Assembly: GCA_038062875.1 (NCBI GenBank)
Contig: JBBTWF010000005.1
Location: 1-42,141 of the forward strand
Direction of reading: 5' to 3'
DNA: 42,141 nt
From: Patescibacteria group bacterium
GTDB lineage: Bacteria; Patescibacteriota; Minisyncoccia; UBA6257; UBA9933
The translations under genes were made by a program, and so were the position numbers. A model generated the notes under the pieces. It had not been told where the DNA came from. It ran no database searches and saw nothing but the letters and a program-made list of their open reading frames with translations. This document shows, piece by piece, positions 1 to 25,626 of the stretch (within the stretch, counting starts at the first letter, position 1; every line of letters begins with the position of its first letter).

Positions 1-55
1 CGCCTCTGGCGAGCCTCGCCTCTGGCGGGGGTTTTGGGTTTTGGGTTAATAAAAT
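1..55. repeat. GC-rich repeat unit (cgcctctggcgagcctcgcctctggcggggg + ttttgggttttgggtt); copy 1, identical to 790..844
   Basis: Bases 1..55 are identical to 790..844 by direct reading. The unit contains the internal tandem cgcctctggcg x2. This copy supplies the stop codon of the 46..456 ORF. Confidence 0.8.
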
Positions 56-456
56 GGTCTTTTTCCTTCGGCGACATCAACGAGATAAGGCGGCTTAAAT
101 CCTCCTTTGAGCATTAAAAGATAAGCGATTATATCGGAATCCACCTGTCTGCCGAGATTATCAACAAAAAATGCTCTATCGCCGTCAGCGTCAAAAATAA
201 CGCCGAAGTCGGCTTTGTATTTATAAATTGCTGATTGCAAATTGATAATTGCTCCTTTTTTCAGCGGGTCAGGCCCGTGAGCCGGAAAATTGCCGTCTGG
301 GTTTCCGTTGATAATTTTCAATTTTAAATTTTCAATTTTCAATTGACGAACAATTAAACCGGCGGTGCCGTTTGAACAATCAAAAACTATTTTGAGTGGT
401 TTTGCCGGCTTTAAAAATTTTTTAAGAAAATTTACGTAAATTTTTATATAATTCAT
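46..456 (-). pseudogene. Phosphoglucomutase/phosphomannomutase family, domains II-III fragment. It is split from domain I at an ATGA overlap and truncated by the repeat copy at 1..55.
   Basis: Motifs LKIVFDCSNGTAG and GNFPAHGPDPL are typical of alpha-D-phosphohexomutase domains II/III. The ORF starts 4 nt inside the upstream domain-I ORF. No domain IV precedes the stop, which is supplied by the repeat. Confidence 0.6.
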
Positions 457-944
457 ATTAACTTTAAAATTTCTTTGCCGCTAATCGGCACGGCATTTCT
501 ACCAACCACTTTCAATCCATTATAGTTTTTCGGATTATGACTGGCTGTTATCATTATCCCGCCATCGGCGTTTAGTTTATTAACCAAAAAATAAAACATT
601 GGCGTTGTTGTCATTCCGACCGGAATAGTTTTTACCTGCCTGCCGGCAGGCAGGGCTTTTAAGTTTTTTCCGCCTAAGGCGGATCCGCCTCTGGCGGAAG
701 CTTTTAGTGATTTAAGAACGATTTTGTATAAACTTGACGAACTTAATCGAGCGTCGTGGCCGATTACAATTTTAGGTTTTGGGTTTTGCCGCCTCTGGCG
801 AGCCTCGCCTCTGGCGGGGGTTTTGGGTTTTGGGTTAATAAAATAACGTCCAAGAAAACGGCTGATTTTCTCAACCACTTCCTCATTTATTTCAAGCGGG
901 TATTTGCCCCGAATATCGTAGGCGCGAAAAATTTTAGGATTCAT
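453..944 (-). CDS. Phosphoglucomutase/phosphomannomutase domain I (active-site Ser loop TASHNP), carrying two in-frame repeat-derived insertions
   Basis: The sequence contains IFRAYDIRGKYP, GHDARLSS and ITASHNPKNYNGLK. The segments KPKTPARGEARQRRQNPKPK and ASARGGSALGGKN are translations of repeats 778..844 and 672..701. Confidence 0.75.
   Translation of the reverse strand: MNPKIFRAYDIRGKYPLEINEEVVEKISRFLGRYFINPKPKTPARGEARQRRQNPKPKIVIGHDARLSSSSLYKIVLKSLKASARGGSALGGKNLKALPAGRQVKTIPVGMTTTPMFYFLVNKLNADGGIMITASHNPKNYNGLKVVGRNAVPISGKEILKLI
672..701. repeat. GC-rich palindromic repeat gcctaaggcggatccgcctctggcggaagc, with a second copy at 24963..24993 inside xerC/D
   Basis: The core aggcggatccgcct is a perfect 14-bp palindrome. 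A near-identical copy lies inside the recombinase gene and is in-frame in both genes. Confidence 0.75.
778..844. repeat. GC-rich repeat, copy 2 (see 1..55), in-frame inside pmm domain I
   Basis: A 55/55 identity to 1..55 was read directly. It is flanked by gttttgggtttt motifs. Confidence 0.8.
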
Positions 945-957
945 CGTAAATAAATTA

Positions 958-1028
958 TATCATAAATCCCGCACCTTCCCAGAATACCCCGCGGGGTTTG
1001 ATACTCCGTGGGAAGGTGCGGGATAAAA
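958..1028. repeat. Inverted-repeat element with termini AAATCCCGCACCTTCCC / GGGAAGGTGCGGGAT and an internal CCCCGCGGGG palindrome
   Basis: A 15-bp perfect inverted repeat flanks a roughly 30-bp loop. The same terminal motif (aaatcccgcacc ... ggtgcgggat) bounds a second element at 38744..38842. Confidence 0.7.
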
Positions 1029-1030
1029 AC

Positions 1031-1055
1031 AAAAAACCGCCGAAAGGCGGTCGCG
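1031..1055 (-). terminator. Rho-independent terminator (stem accgcc/ggcggt, loop gaaa) after the AbiEii-like gene
   Basis: A GC hairpin is followed on the minus strand by tttttgtttttat, directly downstream of the stop at 1060. Confidence 0.6.
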
Positions 1056-1059
1056 GAAA

Positions 1060-1731
1060 CTACTTAAATACCTTGCCTGAAAGTTTTTCCGCCTCCTTAA
1101 TAAAAAATTCCTGCCACAGTTTTTCATCAAGTTTTTCCAACATTTGAGGATAATCTTTCAGTTCTTTCGCCTTTACATATTGAGCGCCGAGCTGGACGGG
1201 ATCAATATGGTTATCAAATTTTATTTGAGCCTTATCAACCAAAGAATTAATTGTTAATGTCGGATTATCTTTTAGAATCAAATAAAGATCGATAAAATCG
1301 CGGGAACGCGGATTTTGATAAATTGTAAATATCTTATTTGTAGCGATATCAATAAGACTGTCTATAAAAAGCTCGCCGATTTTCTGTTTCCGCTCTATGC
1401 GAGTAAAAGGAAAATAAGTAAATTCCGTCTTTATCACGCCAGTATCGGTGTAAAGAAAAAATAAATTCCTATTGAAGCTTTGCTGGTATTCTACCTTCTT
1501 GACGCCGGCGGCAGTTTGAATTTTCTTTAAAATAACCGAAACACTTTGCGGATCAAATTCTTGTTCGGAGAAAAAATCCAAATCTTCAGATAATCGGTGG
1601 TGGAGATAAAACTCTGCAAGCGCCGTGCCGCCAGTTAAATAGAAATAGGCGCAGATTGACTTCTCTTCAGAGAGAAGTTTTAGAAGTTTTTTCTGATTCT
1701 CAGAGAGAATTGAAGATTGATTTATTCTCAT
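1060..1731 (-). CDS. Nucleotidyltransferase of the AbiEii/DUF1814 family (candidate type IV toxin-antitoxin / abortive-infection toxin)
   Basis: The N-terminal YLTGGTALAEFYLHHRLSEDLDFF is characteristic of the AbiEii nucleotidyltransferase fold. The 4-nt ATGA overlap with the upstream small ORF is typical TA-operon architecture. Confidence 0.65.
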   Translation of the reverse strand: MRINQSSILSENQKKLLKLLSEEKSICAYFYLTGGTALAEFYLHHRLSEDLDFFSEQEFDPQSVSVILKKIQTAAGVKKVEYQQSFNRNLFFLYTDTGVIKTEFTYFPFTRIERKQKIGELFIDSLIDIATNKIFTIYQNPRSRDFIDLYLILKDNPTLTINSLVDKAQIKFDNHIDPVQLGAQYVKAKELKDYPQMLEKLDEKLWQEFFIKEAEKLSGKVFK

Positions 1732-1916
1732 ACAAAGAGAGATAAAAATTTTCTTTTAAAAGGGTCTATATTCACTGTGTCCCAATACTTTTGTAATTCA
1801 TTAATATCAATTTTTTCTTCTCCTAATCCAAAATTAATAAGCTGCTCAAGGCGCCAAATAGAAAATTTTTCCGGATTTTTTCGCAACTCCGAAATATCAG
1901 TAGACCAATTTTTCAT
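1728..1916 (-). CDS. Small 62-aa protein translationally coupled upstream of the AbiEii-like gene; a putative cognate antitoxin or regulator
   Basis: It overlaps the toxin start by 4 nt. No recognisable motif was found, and it is shorter than canonical AbiEi. Confidence 0.35.
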   Translation of the reverse strand: MKNWSTDISELRKNPEKFSIWRLEQLINFGLGEEKIDINELQKYWDTVNIDPFKRKFLSLFV

Positions 1917-1959
1917 AGTTTAATTATATCACAAAAATCAGATAATCACAAACTCAAAA

Positions 1960-2010
1960 TTTTATAATCGTCAAACTCAACGTCCATAAAGTCGGTGCGG
2001 ATGCCGGCGT
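1960..2010. repeat. 51-bp perfect direct repeat, copy 1 (copy 2 at 2311..2361)
   Basis: The sequence ttttataatcgtcaaactcaacgtccataaagtcggtgcggatgccggcgt occurs identically at both sites. The pair flanks a roughly 300-bp segment that carries a 75-aa ORF. Confidence 0.85.
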
Positions 2011-2027
2011 AGCCTTAAAATTTTTAT

Positions 2028-2255
2028 TTATAAATATCCTTTGTTTAAAAAAATTTGTTTTAAAAAATCTTTTTTATCGGTAAAAATAAATTTCGGCTCA
2101 TTTTGATATTTTTTAATGATTTTTTTTATAAAAGACCCTTTATATTCTCCTTCGGGATCTTTTAAAATAAGAAAGACAAGCTCTTTAAGAGTTCTTGTTT
2201 CTTCTTTTAACGCTTTGACTTCTTTATAAATTTTTTCCGCAGTTTGAATAGACAT
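2028..2255 (-). CDS. Hypothetical 75-aa Lys/Glu-rich protein lying between the 51-bp direct repeats
   Basis: This is an ORF only, with no recognisable family. It sits in a duplicated or rearranged segment. Confidence 0.3.
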   Translation of the reverse strand: MSIQTAEKIYKEVKALKEETRTLKELVFLILKDPEGEYKGSFIKKIIKKYQNEPKFIFTDKKDFLKQIFLNKGYL

Positions 2256-2296
2256 AATTTAATACTATATCAAGAATTAAAAATCGTCAATATCTT

Positions 2297-2485
2297 CTAA
2301 AACTTCACGATTTTATAATCGTCAAACTCAACGTCCATAAAGTCGGTGCGGATGCCGGCGTTTGAAGCATTTCTGTTGGAACTCGCGCTCATATTTAATT
2401 CCGTAATTTTGGAAACAGTTTCTTCGTTTATTTCGTTCGGGTATTTGCCCCGAATATCATAGGCGCGGAAGATATTGTTGTCCAT
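2297..2485 (-). pseudogene. Orphan duplicate of the pmm N-terminus (MDNNIFRAYDIRGKYPNEINEE...) followed by unrelated sequence
   Basis: The first roughly 35 aa and the DNA at 2385..2485 closely match 860..944 (the pmm start). The rest of the ORF is the translation of the 51-bp repeat. Confidence 0.6.
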
Positions 2486-2525
2486 TGATTGAATTTTAAC
2501 CTATTTTAGTGTTTAATTAAAGAAA

Positions 2526-4604
2526 ATGTCGCGCTCAAAAAAGAAAAAATTTCAAAACAAAAAACTTTCTGAAAAATTAGGAACCGAGACAGAGGACTCG
2601 CGGCTTCATCCGGAAACCAAAAAAAGCGTCTGGGCGATTGTGTTTTTGGGAATCGCGGTGATTTTTATTTTGGCCAGTTTTCAAAACGCCGGACCGGTCG
2701 GCAACTTTATTTACAAAATTTTTGAAAATTTGTTCGGATGGGGATATTATCTTTTACCGACTATATTTTTGATAATGGCAGGCGTTTTTTTAGCTTCGGA
2801 ACGACGCAAGATTTATCAAATCACATTTATTGGAGCGGTTCTTTTCGTTCTTTCCGGGCTGGGATTGATTGATATAATTTCCCAGAACAAAGGCGGGATA
2901 ATCGGCAATATTATCGGGTCTTTAGAAACCCCTTTCGGCTATACCGCTTCTATTGTGATTATTTCCACCATTCTCGTTGCTTCGCTCCTTATTACTCTTA
3001 ATCTTCCAATCAAAATCAGAAAACTAATAAAATCAGAAGAAAAAGACGAAGAAACCGAACCACTGAAAGTAAGCGGAGTCAACGCTAAGGAGGAAGAAGT
3101 AAAAATCCCGGAAGAAAAAGAAACTATTAAGGAAAAGGTCTCAGCGGCTATCGGGTTAAAACCCAAACAACTGAAAACTGAAAACTTTAGGCCTAAAACC
3201 GACTATATATTCCCTCCATTAGACCTTCTTAAATCGTCCATTGAAAAGCCAACATCCGGCGATTTAAGAGCGAACGCCAATATTATCAAAAGAACTTTGG
3301 AAAGCTTTGGTATCCCAGTTGAAATGGGAGAAATAAATATCGGGCCCAAAGTTACCCGCTTCACTCTCAAGCCCGCCGAAGGCGTTAAATTATCAAAAAT
3401 TCTGGCGCTAAATCAGGATTTGGCTTTGGCTCTGGCGGCGCACCCGATTAGAATTGAAGCGCCGATTCCCGGGAAATCGCTTGTTGGAATTGAAGTGCCG
3501 AATAAGGCCGCGGCTCTTGTCCGGCTCGGCAGTTTAATGGCTTATCCGGAATTCGTTGATTCCGGATTATTGGGCTTTGTTCTCGGAAGAGATGTCAGCG
3601 GCGAACCGATTTTCGCCAATATTGATAAAATGCCCCATCTTTTGATTGCCGGTAGCACCGGTTCCGGAAAATCAATATCCTTACACTCGCTCATTATTTC
3701 TCTTCTTTATAAAAATTCTCCTGAAACGTTAAAGCTCGCATTGATTGACCCGAAACGGGTGGAGCTTTCCATTTACGAAGGCATTCCTCATTTAGTCGCG
3801 CCAGTGGTTACTGAAACAAAAAAAGCGATCGGCGTCTTTAAGTGGGCGATTCAGGAAATGGAACGGCGCTATGAAATGCTTTTAGGAGCCGGCTGCCGCG
3901 ACATCAGCGCGTACAATAAAAAATTTCCCGATGAATCACTTCCTTATTTATTATTGGTAATTGACGAACTTGCCGACTTGATGACAAGTTATGGCCGAGA
4001 AGTTGAGGGTTCTATCGTACGCTTGGCGCAAATGGCTCGGGCTACAGGACTCCATTTAATCGTTTCCACTCAACGGCCTTCTGTGGAAATAATCACCGGA
4101 CTAATTAAAGCCAACATCACTTCAAGAATCGCCCTTCAAGTCCCAAGCCAAGTTGACTCAAGAACGATTCTTGACACATCTGGAGCTGAAAAATTGCTCG
4201 GCGGTGGCGACATGCTTTTCATCTCTTCGGACTTTTCAAAACCGAAAAGAATTCAAGGCGCTTATCTTTCCGAGGAGGAAATAAATAAAGTCGTTAATTT
4301 TATAAAAGAAAATAACAAAGAAATTGAGTCAGAAGAAATATTGCAATTCCCCGTTAACAATGGAGAAAACGGAGAAAATAATCATCTTGCTTTTGACGAT
4401 TATATTAAAAGCGACGATGAAGACGAACTGCTTGACGATGCGCTGAATATAGTAAAAGAGGCCAAAAAGGCATCCGCTTCCCTACTACAACGCCGATTGA
4501 AAATCGGCTATGCCCGAGCCGCCCGACTTCTTGATATAATGGAGGCCAAAGGATTAATCGGTCCAGGCGACGGAGCCAAACCAAGAGAAGTGTATATAGA
4601 ATAA
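2526..4604 (+). CDS. ftsK: DNA translocase FtsK/SpoIIIE
   Basis: The protein has N-terminal TM helices, a Walker A motif (LIAGSTGSGKS) and a C-terminal gamma (winged-helix) domain (LLQRRLKIGYARAARLLD). Confidence 0.95.
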   Translation: MSRSKKKKFQNKKLSEKLGTETEDSRLHPETKKSVWAIVFLGIAVIFILASFQNAGPVGNFIYKIFENLFGWGYYLLPTIFLIMAGVFLASERRKIYQITFIGAVLFVLSGLGLIDIISQNKGGIIGNIIGSLETPFGYTASIVIISTILVASLLITLNLPIKIRKLIKSEEKDEETEPLKVSGVNAKEEEVKIPEEKETIKEKVSAAIGLKPKQLKTENFRPKTDYIFPPLDLLKSSIEKPTSGDLRANANIIKRTLESFGIPVEMGEINIGPKVTRFTLKPAEGVKLSKILALNQDLALALAAHPIRIEAPIPGKSLVGIEVPNKAAALVRLGSLMAYPEFVDSGLLGFVLGRDVSGEPIFANIDKMPHLLIAGSTGSGKSISLHSLIISLLYKNSPETLKLALIDPKRVELSIYEGIPHLVAPVVTETKKAIGVFKWAIQEMERRYEMLLGAGCRDISAYNKKFPDESLPYLLLVIDELADLMTSYGREVEGSIVRLAQMARATGLHLIVSTQRPSVEIITGLIKANITSRIALQVPSQVDSRTILDTSGAEKLLGGGDMLFISSDFSKPKRIQGAYLSEEEINKVVNFIKENNKEIESEEILQFPVNNGENGENNHLAFDDYIKSDDEDELLDDALNIVKEAKKASASLLQRRLKIGYARAARLLDIMEAKGLIGPGDGAKPREVYIE

Positions 4605-4619
4605 AATTTCTAATTTCTA

Positions 4620-5255
4620 ATGAACAACGACCAGCCGAAAAATTTAACAGAGACGTTTCAAGAAGCGCTGGGTCTTCGCGGTTTGAATACTGAAAAATTA
4701 GCCGAACTAACTAATGTTCCTGAAATGTATATTTTGGCTCTTCGCGACGCTAATTTTGAAAAACTTCCGTCCGCTCCTTACGTCCGTGGCTATTTGATGA
4801 AAATCGCCGAAATTTTAAGAATTGACGGCGAAATGCTTTGGCAAACGTATAAAAACGAAAATATCAAAACCTCCGGCGCGAAAGACAAACTCCCTTCCAA
4901 TCGTTTTTTAATAAAGCCGTTGAAAAAAAAGATTTTCATTTTTGGTTTTATCGCGATTTTTGTTATAATTTATTTAATCTGGCAATCTGATAATTTTTTG
5001 GGAACGCCTAAAATTGAGATTATTAATCCAGCTTTTCCGACTGTTATCGTGAATGAACCAAATATGAAACTAAGCGGAGAAACCGACACTCAAAATAAAT
5101 TGACAATAAACAATGAAGAAATTTTTATCGGAAAAGACGGTCGATTTGAAAAAGAAATTTCTCTCCAGCCGGGCATCAATATTATTGAATTTAAAGCCAA
5201 AAAATTATTAGGCAAAGAAACAAAAGTCGTAAGACAAATAATGTACCAACCGTAG
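4620..5255 (+). CDS. rodZ: RodZ-like cytoskeleton protein (N-terminal HTH, single TM, C-terminal domain)
   Basis: It has an N-terminal XRE-type HTH (LAELTNVPEMYILALRDANFEKLPSAPYVRGYL), one TM helix and a C-terminal beta-rich domain. Confidence 0.6.
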   Translation: MNNDQPKNLTETFQEALGLRGLNTEKLAELTNVPEMYILALRDANFEKLPSAPYVRGYLMKIAEILRIDGEMLWQTYKNENIKTSGAKDKLPSNRFLIKPLKKKIFIFGFIAIFVIIYLIWQSDNFLGTPKIEIINPAFPTVIVNEPNMKLSGETDTQNKLTINNEEIFIGKDGRFEKEISLQPGINIIEFKAKKLLGKETKVVRQIMYQP

Positions 5256-5265
5256 CAATCACAGA

Positions 5266-5335
5266 ACTTAGGATTTAGAATATAGGATTTAGGGAATAAC
5301 CACCCCCTAAATTCTAACTCCTAAATTCTAAATTC
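5266..5335. repeat. Imperfect palindrome built from ttaggatttagaatataggatttagggaat units; a likely bidirectional terminator and member of the 'repeat C' family
   Basis: The left arm at 5266..5299 is the near reverse complement of 5305..5335. The same unit recurs in-frame inside folD at about 7297..7340. Confidence 0.65.
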
Positions 5336-5347
5336 TTGTCACATATT

Positions 5348-6349
5348 ATGACCAAACAAAAAGACGTTGAATCAAAACAAGATATTGATAAATTATTAGA
5401 ATCGTTGCAGGAAAAATTCGGCGAGGGCGCGATAATGAAATTGGGCGATATAAAAAAAGTTGACGTGGCGGCGATTTCCACCGGTTCGTTTTCGCTTGAC
5501 TTAGCTTTGGGAGTCGGAGGTTTTCCGCGCGGAAGAATAGTTGAAGTATTTGGCCCGGAAATGTCCGGAAAAAGCACTTTAGCGCTTCACGCCATTGCCG
5601 AAATCCAAAAACAAAACGGCAAAGCCGCTTATATCGACGCGGAACACGCCCTTGATCCGGAATACGCTAAAAAATTAGGCGTAAAAATCAACGACCTTTT
5701 AATTTCCCAGCCGGACAGCGGAGAAGAAGCGTTAAATATCGTGGAAAATCTGGTGCGTTCGGGAATGATTGACGTTATCGTGGTTGATTCGGTCGCGGCT
5801 CTTACTCCTCGAGCGGAAATTGAAGGAGAAATGGGCGCGCAATTCATCGGCTTGCAAGCCAGAATGATGAGCCAGGCCTTAAGAAAACTTACGGCTATTA
5901 CCGACAAAAATAATGTCTTAATAATATTTATCAACCAATTACGGGAAAAAATCGGAATGATGGGTTATGGCGAACCGACAACTACTCCGGGTGGCAGAGC
6001 GCTTAAATTTTATGCTTCAGTCAGAATTGATTTACGCAGAATCGCCCAAATAAAAAAAGGCGAAGATGTGGTTGGAAACCGCACTCGCGCGAAAGTTGTT
6101 AAAAATAAAGTTGCCCCGCCTTTTAAAATTGTGGAATTTGATATTATTTACGGCGAAGGCATTTCTTACGAAGGCGATATTCTGAATACGGCTCTTAAAT
6201 ACGGCGTTGTAACAAAATCCGGGAATACTTATAGTTTCGAGGGAGAAAAAATCGGCGTTGGAATGGAAGCGGCGAGAGAAAAATTAAAAGAAGATAAAAA
6301 ACTCCTTGGTGAAATAAAGAAAAAGGTCTTGACGGTTTTGAAAATTTAA
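5348..6349 (+). CDS. recA: Recombinase RecA
   Basis: The sequence contains [13 protein letters not shown] (Walker A), [19 protein letters not shown] and the L2 loop region. The ATG at 5348 is preferred over the TTG at 5336. Confidence 0.97.
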
Positions 6350-6397
6350 ATTACTCTTTAATTAGTCATTTAGAATAAATTTATAAAGGAGGTAGGG

Positions 6398-6568
6398 ATG
6401 ATTACTTTTTTGATAAAAATCATTTGCTGGCCGTTTGGTATTCTTCGCGCTTTGCTTTTTTGCTGTTTTGAATTAATTGAACGAGGGATATCAGAATTTT
6501 TCTGGCAGTATGACAAGTTGGATCTTGGCAACAAGCTGATGAGAAAACTATTTAGAAGGGGATTTTAA
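6398..6568 (+). CDS. Small 56-aa hydrophobic protein with a strong SD (AAAGGAGG, 7 nt before ATG)
   Basis: This ORF is not in the supplied track because it is under 60 aa. It has an RBS and a downstream intrinsic terminator. Confidence 0.4.
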   Translation: MITFLIKIICWPFGILRALLFCCFELIERGISEFFWQYDKLDLGNKLMRKLFRRGF

Positions 6569-6582
6569 ACCCCTTCTTTTTT
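6555..6582. terminator. Bidirectional rho-independent terminator (gaagggg-N8-ccccttc + T6)
   Basis: The hairpin and T tract were read directly. It lies between the small ORF and the convergent dgkA stop. Confidence 0.7.
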
Positions 6583-6589
6583 ACAAATT

Positions 6590-6934
6590 TTACAAATATG
6601 GCAGAAAAATTACTAAACCAATAATCGCGGCACCGATACTGACAACCAAAACAACTGCCGCCATTAGGTCTTTAATTATTTTTACTTGTCCGTTGGGAAA
6701 CGGATGAATAAAATCCAAAAGCCGCTCAATAATGGAATTAATAAGCTCTAAAATCAGGACAGAAAAAATCATCAATAGAAGCGCTACCTTTTTAATTCGC
6801 GAAGTTGGAAAATAAAACATCGTTGCCACCACTAAAAAAGCGGTAATAAACATTATTTTAAAACTTCTTTCCTCCAATAAGGTATCTTTAAGACCACTAA
6901 AAGCGGCTATAAAACTATTTTTTAATTTTCGCAT
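6590..6934 (-). CDS. dgkA: Diacylglycerol/undecaprenol kinase family (DgkA)
   Basis: It is a 3-TM protein of about 114 aa with an ELINSxIExxxD motif. Confidence 0.75.
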   Translation of the reverse strand: MRKLKNSFIAAFSGLKDTLLEERSFKIMFITAFLVVATMFYFPTSRIKKVALLLMIFSVLILELINSIIERLLDFIHPFPNGQVKIIKDLMAAVVLVVSIGAAIIGLVIFLPYL

Positions 6935-7770
6935 AATTTATAAAAATTCTCAAAAAGTTTGGCTACCAGTATTGGGCCGGTGCCGCCGGGGGTTGGAGTG
7001 TAAAAATCAGCTTTTAGCTTTGAGTTTTTAGCTTTTAGAGACTCAACATCGAAATCACCGTGAATTTTTCCGTTTTCATCAATAAAATAACCAAAATCAA
7101 TTATTCCTGCGTCGTCTTTTAACATCTCCGGTTTTATAATTCCGGCTTGACCAACGCCAGAAATAACTAAGTCAAAGTTTTTTAACTCCAATAAATCGCT
7201 CCCCTTTCCAAAAATCGCTAATTCTTTCACTTTATCCATCAGCCAAACCGCAATCGGTTTGCCGATTAAAAAACCCGCGCCGACAACGGCTACTTTTTTA
7301 GAATTTAGAATATAGGATTGAGAATTTAGGGAATTTAAGATTTCTTCTACTGTTGCTACCGCTGGTGGTAGCACGAAATTTCTATTGTTATAAAAAGCCC
7401 CCAACGCTCGCTCGCCTAAAACATCAACGTCTTTTTCGCGAGGAATAACGTTGAGAATATAATGCTTATTAATATGTTCCGGCAACGGCAACTGAACAAT
7501 CACTCCCCCGACTCTTTTTAATAAAGCGATTTTGCCGGCTTCTTTTCTTAAATCGTCGTTTTTGATTCCGCCAGCTGGCGGATTCGGAAATTTGTAAATT
7601 CTAAAATCAACGCCCAATTCCTTGGCGACTTTTTCTTTTTGTTTTAAAAAACTTGAAGACGCCGGATTTTCTCCGACCAAAATTACCGCCAAGAATTTTT
7701 TAGGAATTTGTTGCTGTTTTAAATTATCAATAATTTTTTTGGCTATTTCGGCGCCGGAAATTTTTTGCAT
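6922..7770 (-). CDS. folD: Bifunctional methylenetetrahydrofolate dehydrogenase/cyclohydrolase FolD
   Basis: It contains GGVIVQLPLP, YTPTPGGTGP and a Rossmann GAG motif, and carries two small in-frame repeat insertions. Confidence 0.93.
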   Translation of the reverse strand: MQKISGAEIAKKIIDNLKQQQIPKKFLAVILVGENPASSSFLKQKEKVAKELGVDFRIYKFPNPPAGGIKNDDLRKEAGKIALLKRVGGVIVQLPLPEHINKHYILNVIPREKDVDVLGERALGAFYNNRNFVLPPAVATVEEILNSLNSQSYILNSKKVAVVGAGFLIGKPIAVWLMDKVKELAIFGKGSDLLELKNFDLVISGVGQAGIIKPEMLKDDAGIIDFGYFIDENGKIHGDFDVESLKAKNSKLKADFYTPTPGGTGPILVAKLFENFYKLCEN

Positions 7771-8972
7771 AATTTTTCAACTTCTTTTTTGATTAATGCC
7801 GAATTTCCGTTTTTAATTAAAATCCTGAAAATCCAATCTGCGATTTGACGCATTTCTTTTTCTTTCATTCCGCGAGTAGTTAGAGCTGGAGTGCCGAGCC
7901 GCAATCCTGAAGGCCTGAAAGGACTGGCGTCGCCGGGCACTGAATTTCGGTTAGCTAAAATGCCGGCTGTTTCCAGTTTCTTCTCCGCTTCAAAACCATT
8001 GCCTCCAAGATTGATTAATATTAAATGATTGTCAGTGCCTCCGGCGACTAAATCAAAGCCGTATTTTTTTAATGATTTTGCCAACGCTTGAGCATTTTTA
8101 ATAACTTGTTTCTGATATTTTTTAAATGACTGCTTTTTTGTTTCAAAAAACATTTCCGCGATGGCGGCAATCGTATTATTGTGAGGCCCGCCTTGCATGC
8201 CCGGAAAAACCGCTCTGTCAATTTTATCAGCTAATTCTCTTTTACAAAAAATTATCGCGGCTCGCGGACCGCGTAAAATTTTATGAGTCGTTGTCATCAC
8301 CACATCACTGTAAGGAAACGGAGACTGATGAAGTCCGGCGACAACCAAACCAGAAATATGCGAAATATCAACCATATGATAAGCCCCGACTTTTTTAGCT
8401 ATTTCGCCGAATTTTTTGAAATCAATTTTTCGCGGGTAAGCGGTCGCGCCGGAAACGATAATTTTCGGCTTATGTTTTTTCGCCAATCGCTCAACTTCTT
8501 TGTAGTCAATCAATCCGGTCTTTTTATCAACTCCGTATTGAATCGTTTTATAAACGACGCCGGAAAAATTCACTTTATGGCCGTGCGTTAAATGCCCGCC
8601 GTTGGTCAATTCCATTCCCATTAAAACATCTCCGAAATTGAGTAAGGCAAAATAAATTTCCAGATTAGCCGGCGAGCCGGAATACGGCTGGACATTTACT
8701 GACCAGCTTTTAGCTTTTAGCTTAAAAGCTTTTAGAGCGCGCTCTTGCGCCAAATTCTCAATCTCATCGTAATATTGGTTTCCGGGATAATAACGCCTGC
8801 CTTCCGCTGCGTATCCTTCGGAATATTTATTCATCAACGGAGAACCGACGATTTTTAAAATTTCCGGAGAAGCGAAATTTTCCGAAGCGATTAAATTAAT
8901 CGTTTTTTGCTGACGATTGATTTCTTTTTTAATTAAATTATTCAAAATTTTATCTTTCACTGAATTTATCAT
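7743..8972 (-). CDS. glyA: Serine hydroxymethyltransferase
   Basis: The PLP-site motif TTTHKILRGPR, VNVQPYSG and overall collinearity identify it. Confidence 0.95.
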   Translation of the reverse strand: MINSVKDKILNNLIKKEINRQQKTINLIASENFASPEILKIVGSPLMNKYSEGYAAEGRRYYPGNQYYDEIENLAQERALKAFKLKAKSWSVNVQPYSGSPANLEIYFALLNFGDVLMGMELTNGGHLTHGHKVNFSGVVYKTIQYGVDKKTGLIDYKEVERLAKKHKPKIIVSGATAYPRKIDFKKFGEIAKKVGAYHMVDISHISGLVVAGLHQSPFPYSDVVMTTTHKILRGPRAAIIFCKRELADKIDRAVFPGMQGGPHNNTIAAIAEMFFETKKQSFKKYQKQVIKNAQALAKSLKKYGFDLVAGGTDNHLILINLGGNGFEAEKKLETAGILANRNSVPGDASPFRPSGLRLGTPALTTRGMKEKEMRQIADWIFRILIKNGNSALIKKEVEKLCKKFPAPK

Positions 8973-9000
8973 AATGAAAATCCGTCAAAAATCAAACATA

Positions 9001-9045
9001 ACGACAACAAAAAGAGTCCCGTCGGGACTCTTTTTGTTGCTTTTT
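9001..9045. terminator. Bidirectional intrinsic terminator (agagtccc-gtcg-ggactct) flanked by T/A tracts
   Basis: A perfect 8-bp stem has T runs on both sides. It lies between the glyA start region and the 9064 stop. Confidence 0.65.
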
Positions 9046-9063
9046 TCGCCTGTGGCGAAAAAT

Positions 9064-9741
9064 TTATTCGGTTCCTCTTTTGAGTTTTTCCATCAAGGAA
9101 GCTGCGTAGTCCTTTCCGCCTAAACCGAAAGCAATACCGCCGGCCAAAGCGATCATCGCGATTAAGCCGGTAATTAATGTGTTAATAATAGTAACGGCAA
9201 TACCAAGCTGAGTTAAAGCGGTAAGAAGACCGAAAACTACTACTGACCACCAAGTAAGGGTTCCCAAAAATTTTGAGGCATGTAATTTAGAAGCAGTTAC
9301 TGAAGCCGTAACTAACGACCTCAAGAAACTCCCAAGCACCACTGTCGCCAACATTATCAAGACGGCGATAATAATATTCGGAATATAAAGCAAAACATCG
9401 CTCAAAAAACCTGAAAGCGCCCAAAATCCTAAAATATCAGAAGCCGCCAAAATAAAGGCGAATACTAAAAACCAATAAATTAAACGTCCCAAAAATCTAC
9501 CAGTGTTTATCTGGAGACCGGCTCGTTCAAAATACGGGCTCAAACGAATCTTTCTAAGAAGCGCGTCGATTTTAACAGCGCTAATCAATCGTTCAACTAA
9601 AGAACCCAATGCTGTCGCTACCACCAAACCAATAATAATTATTATTAATGCTCCGATGAGCGACGGCAAAAAACCAGCTACTGTCCCCCAAAGATTTTGG
9701 AGCGAGCTTACAACTATGTCTGTCCAATTTTGAATTGTCAT
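9064..9741 (-). CDS. Polytopic membrane protein with repeated conserved-TM-helix segments (MscS-associated TM_helix-like); function unknown
   Basis: Hydrophobic helices repeat with an A/G/L-rich pattern. The assignment is weak. Confidence 0.4.
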   Translation of the reverse strand: MTIQNWTDIVVSSLQNLWGTVAGFLPSLIGALIIIIIGLVVATALGSLVERLISAVKIDALLRKIRLSPYFERAGLQINTGRFLGRLIYWFLVFAFILAASDILGFWALSGFLSDVLLYIPNIIIAVLIMLATVVLGSFLRSLVTASVTASKLHASKFLGTLTWWSVVVFGLLTALTQLGIAVTIINTLITGLIAMIALAGGIAFGLGGKDYAASLMEKLKRGTE

Positions 9742-9761
9742 AATATTTAACTATATTCTCG

Positions 9762-9777
9762 CGAAATTTCGCGATAA
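9762..9777. promoter_or_regulatory. Perfect 16-bp palindrome TCGCGAAATTTCGCGA in the promoter region of the 9064..9741 gene; a candidate operator
   Basis: It was read directly and lies about 20 bp upstream of the minus-strand start codon at 9741. Confidence 0.35.
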
Positions 9778-9869
9778 GCTATCATATTCGACCTTTTAAA
9801 ATTATTCTTTCTAACTCTATAATTATAACGCAAAATCAAAAAAAACGCATTTACAACTGTGGATAACTG

Positions 9870-9941
9870 TGGGCGCAGGAGGGATCGGACCTCCGACCTC
9901 TTCGATGTCAACGAAACGCTCTACCACTGAGCTATGCGCCC
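9870..9941 (-). tRNA. tRNA-Val (anticodon GAC)
   Basis: It folds manually as a cloverleaf: acceptor GGGCGCA/TGCGCCC, D arm GCTC-AGTGGTA-GAGC, anticodon loop TTGACAT. Confidence 0.85.
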
Positions 9942-9946
9942 AAATA

Positions 9947-10624: not shown

Positions 10625-10640
10625 ATTTTGTTTCTCCTTT

Positions 10641-17152: not shown

Positions 17153-19660
17153 ATGCTCAAAAATTTAAATAAAATTGGCAAAATAGAAAAAAGGGAAATC
17201 ACTGCTGAGTTGCAGGAATCTTATCTTGATTACGCGATGTCTGTAATTATTTCCCGCGCCCTGCCGGATGTCCGAGACGGATTAAAACCGGTCCATCGCC
17301 GAATTTTGTGGGCCGCTTGGGAAGAAGGGCTGACGCATAACGCGAAATTCAGGAAGTCGGCGAACATAGTCGGTCAGGTTATGGCGCGTTATCATCCGCA
17401 CGGCGACTCCGCAATTTATGATTCTTTGGCAAGAATGGCCCAGGACTTTTCATTAAGATATCCGTTAATTCAAGGTCAAGGCAATTGGGGTTCCATTGAC
17501 GGAGACGCTCCCGCGGCAATGCGATATACGGAAGCGCGCCTTGCAAAAATATCCGACGAATTATTAACCGACGTTGAAAAAGAAACAGTTGATTGGAATC
17601 CGAATTATGACGGAAGCCATCGCGAACCGAAAGTTCTGCCGGCAAAACTCCCTAATCTTTTAATAAACGGCTCAATGGGCATCGCTGTAGGAATGGCAAC
17701 CAATATACCGCCAAATAATCTCTCCGAAGTTATTGACGCCACACTCCATTTAATAGACCACCCCAAATCTTTGACAGAAGATTTGATGACTTTTATCCAA
17801 GGCCCTGATTTTCCGACAGGCGGGATTATTTACGACAAAAAAGCGATTACCGAAGCGTACGCTTCTGGCAAAGGAGCGATTACCGCGAGAGCGAAAACGG
17901 AAATTATTGAAAAAAAGAGCGGTTATTTCAGCATTATTATCACGGAAATCCCCTATCAAGTTAATAAATCTGAATTAATAATAAAAATCGCCGAACTGGT
18001 GCAAGATAAAAAAATAGAAGGTATCCGCGATGTCCGCGACGAAAGCGGAAGGGAAGGATTAAGAATAGTCATTGAATTGAAAAACGACGCTTCTCCGCAA
18101 AAAATACTTAACCAACTTTTCAATCACACCGACCTTCAAAAAAATTTTAATATGAATATGCTCGCGCTGGGTCATGGAATCCAACCGCAAACAATGTCGG
18201 TAAAAGACGTTTTAGAAGCGTATGTTGAGCATCGCCAAGAAGTTGTTCGACGACGTACCGCGTTTGAACTCGCCAAAGCGAAAGAACGCGCCCATATTCT
18301 TGAAGGATTGGCAAAAGCGCTTTCCGCAATAGATAAAATCATCGCTGTCATAAAAAAATCAAAAGATACCGAGGAAGCGCATAAGAAATTAATGGAAAAT
18401 TTCAAACTCACAGGTATTCAGGCGACCGCGATTCTTGAAATGAAATTGAGGGCATTGGCGGCGCTGGAAAGACAAAAGATAGAAGACGAATTAAAAGAGA
18501 AAAAGAAATTAATAGCCGAATTGGAAGCGATTCTAAAAAGCGGACAAAAGATACTGAATATCATCAAAGAAGAATTAATAAAATTAAAAGAAAAACACGG
18601 CGATGAAAGAAAAACAAAAGTGGTTGCTGGCGGTCTCAAAGAATTTAAAGAAGAAGACCTTGTTCCGCAGGAAGAATCCATAATCACTCTTTCCAAGAGC
18701 GGTTATATTAAACGAGTAAATCCTACCATTTTTAAATCGCAGAAACGCGGAGGCACGGGATTAATCGGCTCTGAAGTCGGCGAAGAGGATTTTCTTTCTC
18801 ATTTTATTTCCGCCAACACACATAACAATATCTTATTTTTCACAGACCACGGAAAAGTTTTTCAAACCAAAGTTCATGAAATTCCCGTTGGCTCCAGAAT
18901 CGCCAAAGGTAAATTAATTCAAAATTTCTTAGACGTTCCTCCCGGCGAAACAATCAGCGCAATTGTTAATTATCCAATCGGCAATCAGCAATCAGCAATT
19001 AATAATCAATTCTTAGTAATGGCTACCAAAAAGGGCGTGATTAAAAAAACGCCTGTTGAAGAATTCCTAAATGTTAGAAGAAGCGGCATCATCGCTATCA
19101 ATCTTGAGAAAGCCCCGACGCCGAAGGGTCGGGGTTCCGACCGAAGCGTCGGAAACGACAGATTGAAATGGGTGAAACTTTCATCGGGAAAAGACGAGAT
19201 AATTTTGGCGACTAAATTAGGACAAGCGATAAGATTCAAAGAATCTCAATTACGGTCAATGGGCAGAACAGCTGCTGGCGTAAAAGCCATTAAATTGAAA
19301 AATAATGACTTTGTGGCAGGACTTGATATAATTAAAAAAGAGGAAAGGGAAAAGAGGAAAGAGGAAAGATTATTAGTTGTGACTGAAAACGGATTTGCCA
19401 AACAGACGGAGCTCAAAGAATACAAAATCCAGAGCCGCGGCGGTTCGGGAATCAAAACCTCTAAAATCAACGCCAAGACCGGATTGATTGTAGCTAGCCG
19501 AATTATTACCAATGAAGAAGAAATTTTGGCTCTTTCGGCAAAAGGGCAGATTATCAGAACTAAAATTTCCGACATCAGAACCGCTGGACGAGCCACTTCC
19601 GGAGTAAGAATTATGAAACTCAAACAAGGAGACAAAGTTATAGGAGTAGTGTGTTTATAA
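17153..19660 (+). CDS. gyrA: DNA gyrase subunit A
   Basis: The active-site region [10 protein letters not shown], the QRDR-like [10 protein letters not shown] motif and a C-terminal beta-pinwheel are present, along with in-frame low-complexity insertions. Confidence 0.96.
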
Positions 19661-24690: not shown

Positions 24691-25626
24691 TCATTTTCTT
24701 CTTCTGGCGTGAAAGGCGTGGTGGACTTCGCGAAGCCCCTTATTGGTAAGATGGGTATAAATTTGAGTGGTGGAAACATTGGCATGACCCAAAAGTTCTT
24801 GGACTGAACGGAGATCGGCTCCGCCGACCAAAAGATCTGTTGCGAATTGATGACGGAGCTGGTGCGGAGTAATTTTATCGGTAATGCCAGCTTTGCGAGC
24901 GTAAAAATTAACCAGTCGCTGGATTGTCCGTGGAATAATCCGACCGATTATTTTTGGCGAGCTTTTTCCGCCTGAGGCGGATCCGCCTTTGGCGGAAGAC
25001 AAACTTACAAAAAGCGCTTCGTCAGTGTCGGTTCTTTTTTCTAAATAATTTTTAATCGCTTTTTTGGCTCGTTCGGAAAGAAAAACCAGCCGCAATTTGT
25101 CTCCTTTCCCACGCACCGAAATTTCACCGCGTTCTAAATCAAGATAACGATTAAGCCCACAAAGTTCGGAAATTCGCAAACCAGTTGAAAAAAATGTTTC
25201 TAAAATCGCTTTGTCGCGCAAAGCGCGCAAATTATTACCGGCAGGCGCCTCAAATAATCTTTCTAAGTCCTTGTATTCAATAATCTCAATCTGCCGCGTA
25301 GATGTTTTCGGAAGTTCAATTTTATCCGGAGATAAAACATTATAATCCTGCTTAATTAAATATTTTAGAAAATTCCGCAAAGCAATCACGTAATACGACT
25401 GGGTAGTTTTTTTTAGAATTCCTCCGTCCGAGATTTTGGTTCGCGCTAAACGCAACCGAAAATCCCTAATTTTATCCATAGTAATGTCTTTTTCGGTTCT
25501 AATTTCGGCAAAATCAATAAAAACCCTAAGATACCGCTCGTAATTCTCGCTTGTTTTCGGGGAACGATTTTTTTCAATCTCTAAATAATCAAGATAATTT
25601 TTGAGAAGATTTTTAATGTCTGGCAT
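24691..25626 (-). CDS. xerC: Tyrosine recombinase, XerC/XerD family, with an in-frame Gly/Ser-rich repeat insertion
   Basis: The catalytic motifs RGKGDKLR, HQLRHQFAT and LGHANVSTTQIYTHL are present. The SSAKGGSASGGKSS segment is encoded by repeat B (24963..24993). Confidence 0.85.
   Translation of the reverse strand: MPDIKNLLKNYLDYLEIEKNRSPKTSENYERYLRVFIDFAEIRTEKDITMDKIRDFRLRLARTKISDGGILKKTTQSYYVIALRNFLKYLIKQDYNVLSPDKIELPKTSTRQIEIIEYKDLERLFEAPAGNNLRALRDKAILETFFSTGLRISELCGLNRYLDLERGEISVRGKGDKLRLVFLSERAKKAIKNYLEKRTDTDEALFVSLSSAKGGSASGGKSSPKIIGRIIPRTIQRLVNFYARKAGITDKITPHQLRHQFATDLLVGGADLRSVQELLGHANVSTTQIYTHLTNKGLREVHHAFHARRRK

What the first reader, a model, noticed from the sequence alone, without database searches (positions are those of the whole stretch)
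1..844. GC-rich repeats inserted in-frame inside the pmm coding sequence (RPE-like behaviour); one copy creates the stop of the downstream fragment
Bases 1..55 and 790..844 are identical. The second copy is translated inside pmm domain I as PKPKTPARGEARQRRQNPKPK without breaking the frame. A second palindromic repeat (672..701, core aggcggatccgcct) is also in-frame in pmm (ASARGGSALGGKN) and recurs in-frame in the xerC/D-like gene at 24963..24993. In-frame proliferation of palindromic elements inside protein genes is well documented for Rickettsia palindromic elements. I am not aware of a described equivalent in CPR-type genomes.
Basis: seen in the sequence. Interest (0 to 1): 0.65.

Follow-up and report, generated by a model that had tools for sequence, protein, structure and literature searches.

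The report
Tiny palindromic inserts inside CPR genes
About 30-base GC-rich hairpin DNA modules sit in frame in surface loops of intact housekeeping genes of this CPR bacterium, as in Rickettsia but about four times smaller and found in many phyla; the repeat copy at the window start looks like a contig-end artefact.

Summary
The in-frame inserts are real. The copy at the window start is not an independent insertion.

- **Terminal copy.** Bases 1-55 do equal 790-844. An independent assembly that is 100% identical over window 48-10944 continues with the rest of pmm instead of the repeat. So bases 1-47 are a contig-terminal join, and the stop they create is unsupported.
- **Inserts in pmm and relatives.** pmm carries a 29-nt 'type 1' core flanked by AAAACCC heptamers, a 30-nt 'type 2' double hairpin and an 18-nt palindrome. 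A nested type 1-in-type 2 insert lies just outside the window. xer has type 2 in the same frame, and gyrA has another double hairpin.
- **Lineage-specific.** Orthologues lack these segments. AlphaFold2 places the pmm domain I and xer inserts in low-confidence loops.
- **Widespread.** About half the named type 2 hosts are CPR; the rest span many phyla.
- **Frame bias.** In long ORFs, 67 of 79 type 2 copies use the frame that encodes SAxGGSAxGG.
- **Heptamer link.** Flanks often carry locus-specific tandem heptamers. Heptamer arrays are about 10-fold enriched in this window.

The closest known analogues are Nostoc small dispersed repeats with their heptamer arrays, intragenic REPs and Rickettsia palindromic elements. 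The mobilising enzyme is unknown. I rate this a new variant of a known kind.

The parts
1..47 (.). Contig-terminal duplicate of 790-836. It holds 28 nt of the type 1 core plus the GGGTTTT heptamer flank, joined to pmm ORF2 at the shared 8-mer ATTTTATT (48-55). It is not present in the independent assembly.
48..456 (-). pmm ORF2 (domain II onward). In this window it is cut off by the terminal join; the full ORF2 is 316 aa in L001 10489-11439.
453..944 (-). pmm ORF1 (PGM_PMM domain I, 163 aa against a 127-131 aa baseline). It carries three inserts in two helix-to-strand loops. The catalytic TASHNP motif is intact.
789..817 (-). Type 1 core CCGCCTCTGGCGAGCCTCGCCTCTGGCGG (29 nt). It encodes PARGEARQRR.
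770..836 (-). Whole site-1 insertion context: (GGGTTTT/AAAACCC)n heptamer arrays at 770-788 and 818-836 around the type 1 core. The net addition against orthologues is about 51 nt (17 aa). My reading is a 30-nt module plus three heptamers (30 + 21).
669..698 (-). Type 2 element TCCGCCTAAGGCGGATCCGCCTCTGGCGGA (two 15-nt hairpin units). It encodes SARGGSALGG.
636..653 (-). 18-nt perfect palindrome CTGCCTGCCGGCAGGCAG, encoding LPAGRQ. The stretch 626-659 is 100% identical to a segment inside trmD of an unrelated metagenome contig (L223).
313..344 (-). AATTTTC heptamer array (4.6 units) in frame in pmm ORF2 (LKIENLKLKI). The short Logan contigs break here.
24967..24996 (-). Type 2 element in the xer-like tyrosine recombinase gene (SAKGGSASGG). 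It sits between TCT and the heptamer AAAAGCT. A 92%-identical relative has three extra heptamers at the same point, and more distant relatives have an empty site.
19112..19153 (+). A further in-frame GC-rich double hairpin in gyrA ([14 protein letters not shown], 74% GC). It is absent from two syntenic relatives.

Best explanation
The GC-rich segments in pmm, xer and gyrA are copies of several families of very small (18-30 nt cores, about 30 nt as inserted) palindromic double-hairpin DNA modules. They spread at the DNA level and insert into A/T-rich or heptamer-repeat sites.

Inside genes, a copy survives only under three conditions:
- The added length is a multiple of three: 30 nt, 60 nt when nested, or 30 nt plus three 7-nt units (51 nt).
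- The reading phase yields a small, flexible or charged peptide, such as S-A-x-G-G-S-A-x-G-G.
- The site is a surface loop.

The result is RPE-like 'decoration' of housekeeping proteins that remain intact.

Shown here: presence/absence among orthologues, the same DNA in unrelated genes and organisms, nesting, frame bias, loop location and the heptamer association.

Inferred: active transposition, possibly with a 7-8 bp staggered target duplication, and a trans-acting enzyme that was not identified.

Separately, the copy at window 1-47 is not an insertion. It is an assembly-graph join at the contig end, arising from chimeric reads or a minor tandem-duplication variant. The stop codon it creates is not a feature of the gene.
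For: **Terminal copy**
- L001 is 100% identical to window 48-10944 but continues with the conserved remainder of ORF2.
- ORF2 residues beyond the junction align at full occupancy with about 100 homologues.
- The 136-aa product is not on record.
- The duplicated 47 nt include site 1's own heptamer flank, whereas other type 1 copies carry locus-specific flanks.

**Lineage-specific inserts**
- Three pmm segments have zero occupancy in 19 full-length homologues and about 100 ORF2 homologues.
- ORF1 relatives have a 127-131 aa baseline with two variable loops.
- Xer relatives have a baseline of about 301 aa with SLTKS-KNPKVIGR. Six or more different palindrome-type peptides occupy the same loop in different lineages.
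- The gyrA insert is absent from the syntenic loci L124 and L127.

**DNA-level families**
- The type 2 pattern gave at least 120 loci in GTDB species genomes. The type 1 pattern gave at least 120 loci in JGI metagenomes.
- Flank bases that were not part of the query are conserved: -1 T in 120/125, +1 A in 122/125, -3 T in 109/125.
- The 34-nt LPAGRQ segment is identical in pmm here and in trmD of L223.

**Frame filter**
- In ORFs of at least 150 aa, the three frames hold 67, 7 and 5 copies. The binomial test against equal use gives p about 5e-21.

**Nesting**
- The L001 domain III insert folds as type 1 inside the second loop of type 2. It is 60 nt (20 aa).

**Heptamers**
- Lag-7 self-similarity of flanks is 0.345 against 0.263 in controls.
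- Perfect 7-mer direct repeats span the core in 13% of type 1 copies, against 0% in controls.
- The window holds 17 period-7 arrays, against a mean of 1.67 in shuffles.
- At the xer site, the 30-nt element in this genome sits where a 92%-identical relative has three extra heptamers.

**Loops**
- AlphaFold2 of ORF1 (mean pLDDT 86) places the inserts at 37-57 and 86-104, in low-confidence coil between a helix and a strand.
- The PDB alignment shows gaps at the same two places.
- The Xer insert at 213-222 has pLDDT below 50 and lies between two strands.
Against: - No transposase or other mobilising gene was identified. None appears in the Pfam lists for L001, L124, L126 or L127.
- No event of recent movement was caught. 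The xer copy is shared by relatives of 84-86% protein identity, so it is old and stably inherited.
- Heptamer flanks occur only in a minority of copies. A 7-bp target duplication is therefore not established.
- Both scans were truncated at 120 rows, so copy numbers and host range are lower bounds. Taxon labels on MAGs may be imprecise.
- For the terminal copy no reads were available. A real minor variant cannot be excluded.
- Translation of the inserts is inferred from intact frames, not from protein data.
Confidence: 0.7

Rival explanations
1. The copy at 1-55 is real. Either a second insertion of the element, or a 789-bp tandem duplication in the sampled population, truncates pmm ORF2 with a TAA stop.
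For: - A de Bruijn contig can end on a repeated k-mer whether the repeat is real or chimeric, so the contig shape does not discriminate. This is my inference.
- The junction needs reads that span it, and the assembler kept that edge.
- The 789-nt spacing and the 8-nt microhomology fit a microhomology-mediated tandem duplication.
Against: - The independent assembly, identical over 10.9 kb, lacks the junction.
- The truncated product is absent from the gene-position collection, while ORF1 is found on 9 contigs.
- The duplicated piece carries site 1's own heptamer flank. That argues against an independent transposition.
- The residues after the junction are conserved in about 100 homologues.
Confidence: 0.2
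2. The elements are ordinary REP/REPIN sequences mobilised by a RAYT (IS200/IS605-type Y1 transposase) encoded elsewhere in the genome. The intragenic copies are the known 'intragenic REP' phenomenon.
For: - The size (about 30 nt), GC-rich imperfect palindromes, dimer organisation and lack of a regular target duplication resemble REPs.
- Intragenic REP dimers encoding 20-30 aa are documented, including in a verrucomicrobium (PMC3733652).
- REP doublets are the replicative unit in Pseudomonas (PMC3116915).
- In a Kiritimatiellae MAG the type 2 core sits in a 185-nt intergenic repeat.
Against: - No GTAG or CGTC tag lies next to the cores: at most 12 of 125 copies for type 2 and 9 of 122 for type 1, which I take to be about chance level.
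- About 63-71% of copies lie inside ORFs of at least 150 aa.
- No Y1 transposase appears in about 52 kb of this genome or in three syntenic relatives.
- From my own knowledge, REPs are mainly extragenic and REP families are normally species- or genus-specific, whereas the same core here spans many phyla.
Confidence: 0.2
3. The segments are not mobile. They arise locally by slippage, hairpin template switching or selection for Gly/Ser/Ala-rich linkers in variable loops.
For: - The sites are hypervariable loops where many kinds of indel accumulate.
- Heptamer arrays clearly expand locally.
- Type 2 is a tandem dimer of a 15-nt unit.
Against: - Near-identical DNA, not just similar peptides, occurs in unrelated genes and organisms, with conserved flanking bases.
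- The same core is found in all three frames and in intergenic DNA.
- Monomer hairpins are rare: 276 unit matches, of which 266 belong to dimers.
- One family is nested inside another.
Confidence: 0.08
4. The hairpins have a selected function in the mRNA or the DNA, for example translational pausing, programmed bypass, protein binding or restriction-modification sites (GGATCC, GCCGGC), rather than being neutral passengers.
For: - The hairpins are stable: -9 to -26 kcal/mol, z-scores -2.6 to -5.
- The palindromic centres are restriction-type sites, as the sequence shows.
- Five modules are clustered in one gene pair.
Against: - No Rfam family matches.
- Presence is patchy among close relatives at the same site.
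- The host proteins are unrelated to one another.
- The frame bias is explained by peptide tolerance alone.
Confidence: 0.05

Closest known systems
Small dispersed repeats (SDR1-8) and STRR heptamer arrays of Nostocaceae (Elhai et al. 2008, Genome Res 18:1484; paper not held, so details are recalled from memory. Searches confirm only that SDR5 inserts precisely within HIP1.)
   Same: - Very small size (21-27 nt there, about 30 nt here).
- Predicted hairpins.
- Copies embedded in tandem heptameric repeats whose sequence differs from locus to locus.
- Nested insertions of one element within another.
- Precise insertion without a transposase in cis.
- Mobilising mechanism unknown.
   Different: - Unrelated sequences.
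- Hosts are CPR/Patescibacteria plus many other phyla, not one cyanobacterial family.
- GC-rich double hairpins of 3n length.
- Most copies seen here are inside ORFs, with a strong frame bias.
- I could not check whether in-frame genic insertion is a feature of SDRs.
Rickettsia palindromic elements (RPE; Ogata et al. 2000, Science 290:347; cited in PMC3184786 and PMC3733652)
   Same: - Palindromic selfish DNA inserted in frame in housekeeping genes that stay intact.
- Inserted peptides sit in loops.
- Several families coexist in one genome.
   Different: - RPEs are about 105-146 bp (PMC3184786) and restricted to Rickettsia.
- Some short RPE families carry a CGTC tag.
- The elements here are about 30 nt, untagged, associated with heptamers and found across phyla.
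REP/REPIN elements and intragenic REPs (Di Nocera et al. 2013, PMC3733652; Bertels and Rainey 2011, PMC3116915)
   Same: - 20-40 bp GC-rich palindromes.
- Often occur as dimers.
- Occasionally sit inside genes, encoding 20-30 aa.
- Considered non-autonomous mobile DNA.
   Different: - No GTAG or CGTC tag.
- No RAYT seen.
- Predominantly intragenic in the CPR examples.
- The same core is shared across phyla.
GC clusters, double-hairpin elements and 'byp' elements of fungal mitochondrial genes (recalled from memory; not checked here)
   Same: Short GC-rich hairpin modules that invade AT-rich genomes, including protein-coding sequences.
   Different: - Organellar.
- Byp elements are skipped by the ribosome rather than translated.
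- Here the frames are open and of 3n length, so translation is the simplest reading.

Membership tests
Rickettsia palindromic elements (RPE) | Palindromic repeat of about 100-150 bp | tested here: not met
   Cores are 18-30 nt. The largest composite insert is 60 nt.
Rickettsia palindromic elements (RPE) | Inserted in frame in otherwise intact protein genes, absent from orthologues | tested here: met
Rickettsia palindromic elements (RPE) | Sequence homology to the RPE families of Rickettsia | not tested
   No RPE consensus was available. The host is a Paceibacteria-type CPR bacterium (names).
REP / REPIN (RAYT-mobilised) | Conserved GTAG (or CGTC) tetranucleotide tag at one end of the palindrome | tested here: not met
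   A tag lies within 8 nt in at most 12/125 (type 2) and 9/122 (type 1) copies, which I take to be about chance level. The flanks are T-rich and A-rich.
REP / REPIN (RAYT-mobilised) | Cognate RAYT / Y1 transposase gene in the genome, flanked by the repeats | not testable with these tools
   Only about 52 kb of the genome was seen, and no such Pfam hit appears in the gene lists. A whole-genome scan is needed.
REP / REPIN (RAYT-mobilised) | Mainly extragenic location | tested here: not met
   79/125 type 2 and 87/122 type 1 copies lie in ORFs of at least 150 aa. All seven copies in this genome are genic.
Cyanobacterial SDR / STRR system | Dispersed repeat under about 30 nt with a predicted hairpin | tested here: met
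Cyanobacterial SDR / STRR system | Embedded in tandem heptameric repeats of locus-specific sequence | tested here: met
   The feature holds for a subset of copies: 13% have perfect 7-mer repeats across the core.
Cyanobacterial SDR / STRR system | Nested insertions of elements within elements | tested here: met
   L001 11013-11075: type 1 lies inside loop 2 of type 2.
Cyanobacterial SDR / STRR system | Sequence identity to SDR1-8 and confinement to Nostocaceae | tested here: not met
   Hosts are CPR and many other phyla.
MITE | 50-500 bp with terminal inverted repeats matching an IS, and a fixed-length target-site duplication | tested here: not met
   The elements are about 30 nt. Direct 7-8 nt flank repeats occur only in a minority. 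No related IS was seen.

The most novel reading that the evidence does not exclude
These are a previously unrecognised class of ultra-small (about 30-nt) mobile double-hairpin elements with three properties:
- They are shared horizontally across many bacterial phyla and are especially frequent in CPR genomes.
- They transpose through an unknown trans-acting activity that also generates or exploits 7-bp tandem duplications.
- They are protein-compatible by construction: 3n length, almost stop-free in all six frames, and one frame that encodes a flexible SAxGG loop.

On this reading they colonise essential genes of highly reduced genomes where little intergenic space exists. They would then be the long-sought general case of the Nostoc SDR phenomenon.
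Probability: 0.35. Interest if true: 0.8.

Novelty: new variant of a known kind. Interest (0 to 1): 0.6.

Why it matters
- **Streamlined genomes.** CPR genomes are among the most streamlined known. Several families of selfish palindromic DNA living inside their housekeeping genes show that reduction does not purge such DNA. It pushes the DNA into protein loops.
- **An open mechanistic question.** As far as I know, how elements of about 30 nt move has been unexplained since the Nostoc SDR report of 2008. These cores occur in hundreds of environmental genomes, which makes a comparative search for the mobilising enzyme feasible.
- **A practical warning.** The cores and their heptamer flanks break or mis-join short-read assemblies, as at the start of this window and at 313-344. 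They also inflate apparent protein divergence and 'low-complexity' regions in CPR proteomes.

Tried and rejected
- **Truncated ORF2 look-up.** Searching for the 136-aa product was meant to find other contigs with the terminal junction. Nothing is on record.
- **Literature.** Searches for CPR, Patescibacteria or Parcubacteria with palindromic, MITE, REP, intragenic or in-frame terms found nothing relevant. Searching for the core string GGCGGATCCGCC returned only cloning primers.
- **Elhai et al. 2008.** The paper could not be opened by DOI or by two PMC ids. Its content is cited from memory and from two citing papers.
- **Rfam.** At gathering thresholds only four tRNAs were found, and nothing at the elements.
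- **Viral contigs.** Two hits for type 2 and none for type 1, so a phage vector is not indicated.
- **Pseudogene idea.** I considered that pmm is a decaying pseudogene, which would make 'in frame' meaningless. I rejected it. The ORF1/ORF2 split is conserved in hundreds of relatives, and the catalytic motifs TASHNP, DADGDR, EHSGH and RLSNTE are intact.
- **Linker idea.** I considered that the inserts are protein-level selected linkers. I rejected it because identity is at the DNA level and the same core occurs in other frames and between genes.
- **Technical contaminant idea.** I considered that the type 2 core is an adapter or other technical contaminant, because of its BamHI site. I rejected it. 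The core occurs in frame in different genes, with variable loops, in assemblies from many studies and assemblers.
Full report
**1. The observation**

Window 1-55 and 790-844 are identical. Identity ends at 56/845 and is cut on the other side by the window start.

pmm lies on the minus strand as two ORFs that overlap by ATGA:
- ORF1 is 944..453, 163 aa, Pfam PGM_PMM_I.
- ORF2 is 456..46, 136 aa in this window, PGM_PMM_II.

ORF1 reads through all the GC-rich segments without a stop: FINPKPKTPARGEARQRRQNPKPKIVIGHDAR and KASARGGSALGGKNLKALPAGRQVK.

The 39-nt stretch 662-700 recurs at 24960-24998 with 92% identity. It has the same orientation and the same frame in a xer-like tyrosine recombinase gene, giving SAKGGSASGGK. 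The hairpin unit CCGCCNNNGGCGG, with up to 1 mismatch, occurs 11 times against 0.67 expected.

**2. The copy at the window start is not an insertion**

A look-up of ORF1 returned a 75.7-kb contig of NCBI assembly GCA_964356485.1 (locus L001). It is 100% identical to window 48-10944. After GACCATTTTATT it continues with GGTTCGCGCC..., the rest of ORF2 (316 aa, domains II-IV).

The evidence against a real second copy:
- The residues after the junction align at full occupancy with about 100 homologues.
- The truncated 136-aa product is on record nowhere, while ORF1 is found on 9 contigs.
- Only window 1-47 is extra. It copies 790-836, including that site's own GGGTTTT heptamer flank.
- The 8-mer ATTTTATT is native to both places, so 47 + 8 = 55.
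- A contig that stops exactly when its last 55-mer repeats an earlier one is what a de Bruijn assembler with k = 55 would produce when a path re-enters a visited node. This is my inference; the assembler is not known.
- Other type 1 copies carry flanks specific to their own locus. A copy that brings site 1's flank with it is therefore a join back to site 1, from chimeric reads or a rare 789-bp tandem duplication, and not an independent transposition.

So the claim that one copy creates the stop of the downstream fragment is not supported. Without reads, I leave about 20% for a real minor variant.

**3. The in-frame inserts are real and lineage-specific**

*pmm against homologues.* I aligned a concatenated ORF1+ORF2 query with the 120 best homologues. 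Three segments have zero occupancy in the homologues:
- residues 36-53, INPKPKTPARGEARQRRQ
- residues 87-102, GSALGGKNLKALPAGR
- residues 343-355, GSASRRRRGSPLA; this domain III insert lies just outside the window, at L001 11013-11075

*ORF1 relatives.* These are stand-alone domain I proteins of 125-186 aa with a baseline of 127-131 aa. They show the same two positions as variable loops. There other lineages carry FSARGGSAAG, SLRGRQ, SPAGRQ, RRIRLFRPRR or PPKADP.

*Xer.* Relatives of 70-80% identity read SLTKS-KNPKVIGR. The query and two relatives have the 10-aa insert. Other lineages carry different palindrome-type peptides at the same loop:
- RLRQGFGGQA
- PSTRSGQA
- KSLPAGRQA
- PPKADSPLA, which is type 2 in another frame
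- SRQRRGSL, which resembles a type 1 frame
- PEAEQARYGAG

*Syntenic loci.* Loci from three relatives (L124, L126, L127) gave further cases:
- a 42-nt, 74%-GC double hairpin in gyrA of this genome only (window 19112-19153)
- an insert in the H+-PPase of L124 only, PEAEQARYGAG, the same peptide as in one Xer relative

*Structure.* An AlphaFold2 model of ORF1 (mean pLDDT 86) puts the inserts at 37-57 and 86-104. They are low-confidence coil between helix 21-36 and strand 58-63, and between helix 70-85 and strand 105-111. In an alpha/beta fold these helix-to-strand loops lie at the end of the sheet opposite the catalytic TASHNP loop; that placement is my inference from the topology. The alignment to Xanthomonas phosphoglucomutase (5BMN) has gaps at the same two places. 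In the Xer model the insert at 213-222 has pLDDT below 50 and lies between two strands.

*Gene integrity.* The catalytic and ligand-binding motifs of pmm are intact (TASHNP, DADGDR, EHSGH, RLSNTE).

**4. Anatomy of the elements**

- **Type 2** is TCCGCC-NNA-GGCGGA|TCCGCC-TNN-GGCGGA. It is a 30-nt dimer of a 15-nt hairpin unit with a 14-nt central palindrome.
- **Type 1** is CCGCC-NNN-GGCGAG-N-CTCGCC-NNN-GGCGG, 29 nt.
- **The third element** is the 18-nt perfect palindrome CTGCCTGCCGGCAGGCAG.
- **The domain III insert** is 60 nt. It folds as a type 1 module nested in the second loop of a type 2 module.
- **pmm site 1** has the type 1 core between AAAACCC heptamer arrays. The net addition is 51 nt, which I read as a 30-nt module plus three heptamers (30 + 21).

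All additions inside genes are multiples of three.

**5. The elements are widespread families**

The chance expectation for 22 specified bases is far below one; that is my own calculation. Of the 80 rows displayed, I counted:
- 38 named as CPR lineages (Kaiser-, Lipton-, Doudna-, Moran-, Campbell-, Giovannoni-, Buchanan-, Falkowbacteria and others)
- 34 named as other phyla (Omnitrophota, Kiritimatiellae, Verrucomicrobiota, Ignavibacteria including contigs over 1.6 Mb, Planctomycetes, Chloroflexota and others)
- 8 named only as 'bacterium'

IMG/VR gave only 2 and 0 hits.

*Flanks.* Bases that were not part of the query are conserved: -1 T in 120/125, +1 A in 122/125, -3 T in 109/125, +3 A in 98/125.

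*Frame.* In ORFs of at least 150 aa, 67 of 79 type 2 copies lie in the frame giving S-A-x-G-G-S-A-x-G-G. The Arg-rich frame holds 7 and the PPxADPP frame holds 5 (p about 5e-21). In short ORFs the three frames are about equal. The fixed bases contain no stop in any frame, so the bias reflects which peptide is tolerated.

*Same DNA in unrelated genes.* The 34-nt LPAGRQ stretch is identical in pmm here and in trmD of an unrelated metagenome contig. That contig also carries two tandem type 1 cores with 8-nt flank repeats.

*Larger context.* In a Kiritimatiellae MAG the type 2 core is part of a 185-nt intergenic repeat.

**6. The heptamer link**

- Many type 1 copies, and some type 2 copies, sit between tandem 7-nt repeats whose sequence is specific to the locus, such as GGAAATT, AATTTCC, AAAAGGC or ATTTTTG.
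- Flank self-similarity peaks at lag 7: 0.345 against 0.263 in controls for type 1, and 0.305 against 0.261 for type 2.
- A perfect 7-mer direct repeat spans the core in 13% of type 1 copies, against 0% of controls.
- The window has 17 period-7 arrays, against a mean of 1.67 (maximum 5) in 30 third-order Markov shuffles. Most are in frame inside ftsK, gyrA, the PNPase gene, pmm ORF2 and other long ORFs.
- At the xer site this genome reads TCT|30-nt element|AAAAGCT. A relative of 92% protein identity reads TCT AAAAGTT CAAAGCT AAAAGAT CAAAGCT, which is three extra heptamers (21 nt, SKLKDQS). A more distant relative has the empty site.
- At one PNPase loop, two relatives carry different heptamer arrays and a third carries none.

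**7. Mechanism**

Best supported: these are very small, non-autonomous palindromic DNA modules that spread at the DNA level. Selection filters them inside genes for 3n length, a benign peptide and a loop position.

- *Shown:* presence/absence among orthologues, the same DNA at non-orthologous sites, nesting, frame bias, loop location and the heptamer association.
- *Inferred:* active transposition, a possible 7-8 bp staggered target duplication that repeated insertion and excision would amplify into arrays, and an unknown trans-acting enzyme.
- *Against recent activity:* the xer copy is shared by relatives of 84-86% identity.

**8. Comparison with known systems**

- **RPE.** The behaviour is the same, but RPEs are about 105-146 bp (PMC3184786). 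The size criterion is not met.
- **REP/REPIN.** Size and dimer organisation fit, and intragenic REPs are documented (PMC3733652). However, no GTAG or CGTC tags are present, most copies are genic, and no RAYT was seen in the DNA available.
- **Nostoc SDRs and STRR heptamers.** This is the closest behavioural match. From my memory of Elhai et al. 2008, these are 21-27-nt hairpin repeats, often embedded in tandem heptamers and often nested, with an unknown mechanism. The paper is not held. Two citing papers confirm only the precise insertion of SDR5 within HIP1. The sequences and hosts differ here.
- **CPR literature.** Four searches found no description of such elements in CPR genomes.

**9. Verdict**

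The terminal copy and its stop codon are an assembly-end effect. The in-frame palindromic inserts are genuine. They belong to a broad, apparently undescribed set of SDR/REP-like families linked to heptamer arrays. I rate this a new variant of a known kind, with interest 0.6.

Noticed in passing
window 453-456 (ORF1/ORF2 junction); L001 10489-10492: pmm is split into a domain I ORF and a domain II-IV ORF that overlap by ATGA. The same split is conserved in many Paceibacteria-type genomes: 481 domain-I-only proteins and about 100 of the best 120 ORF2-type hits. Locus tags are adjacent, for example V3T98_01875/01880, HYW34_01845/01840 and AAB405_02060/02055. This is either a natural two-subunit phosphomannomutase or a programmed frameshift, not a pseudogene.
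   Followed up: partly
window 945-2485: A second pmm 5' remnant lies at 2400-2485 on the minus strand (MDNNIFRAYDIRGKYPNEINEE..., 79% identical to 865-935). Between the two copies lie an AbiEii toxin gene (1060-1731), three small ORFs and a 57-nt direct repeat (1954-2010 and 2305-2361). It looks like a toxin-antitoxin cassette island that inserted at the pmm 5' end and supplied a replacement 5' end.
   Followed up: no
window, 17 sites, e.g. 313-344, 3169-3186, 7009-7038, 7297-7329, 8705-8735, 18975-18999, 19337-19369, 27954-27984: Tandem heptanucleotide arrays of differing unit sequence are about 10-fold enriched over shuffles. Most lie in frame inside ftsK, gyrA, the PNPase gene, pmm ORF2 and other long ORFs. 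They differ between close relatives at the same site.
   Followed up: yes
window 19112-19153: gyrA carries an in-frame 42-nt, 74%-GC double hairpin ([14 protein letters not shown]). It is absent from two syntenic relatives and represents a further element family.
   Followed up: partly
window 958-1025 and 38732-38849: A long intergenic hairpin just upstream of the pmm start codon (cccgcaccttccc...gggaaggtgcggg) shares its AAATCCCGCACCTT arm with an inverted-repeat pair near 38.8 kb. This is another dispersed palindromic family, and this one is intergenic.
   Followed up: no
L223 1004-1762 (JGI metagenome contig): trmD of an unrelated organism carries the identical 34-nt LPAGRQ segment (KALPAGRQVK). 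Near its 3' end it also has two tandem type 1 cores, read in two different frames, each followed by the 8-nt repeat GGTTCTTG.
   Followed up: partly
L009 4569-4752 and 6390-6572 (Kiritimatiellae MAG): The type 2 core is embedded in a roughly 185-nt intergenic repeat present twice, 1.8 kb apart. Similar flanks (cataggaatttt-core-acaatcc) occur in other Kiritimatiellae and Verrucomicrobia contigs.
   Followed up: partly
L002, L003 (Logan contigs) ending at window 312-314: Short-read unitig assemblies of two other runs break exactly at the AATTTTC heptamer array in pmm ORF2. These arrays, like the palindromic cores, fragment assemblies.
   Followed up: no
L124 (H+-PPase gene, residues 282-292) and Xer relative P0185: The same GC-rich peptide PEAEQARYGAG (CCCGAAGCAGAGCAAGCTCGCTACGGGGCAGGT) occurs in an H+-pyrophosphatase of one relative and in the Xer loop of another. 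This is yet another element family.
   Followed up: no
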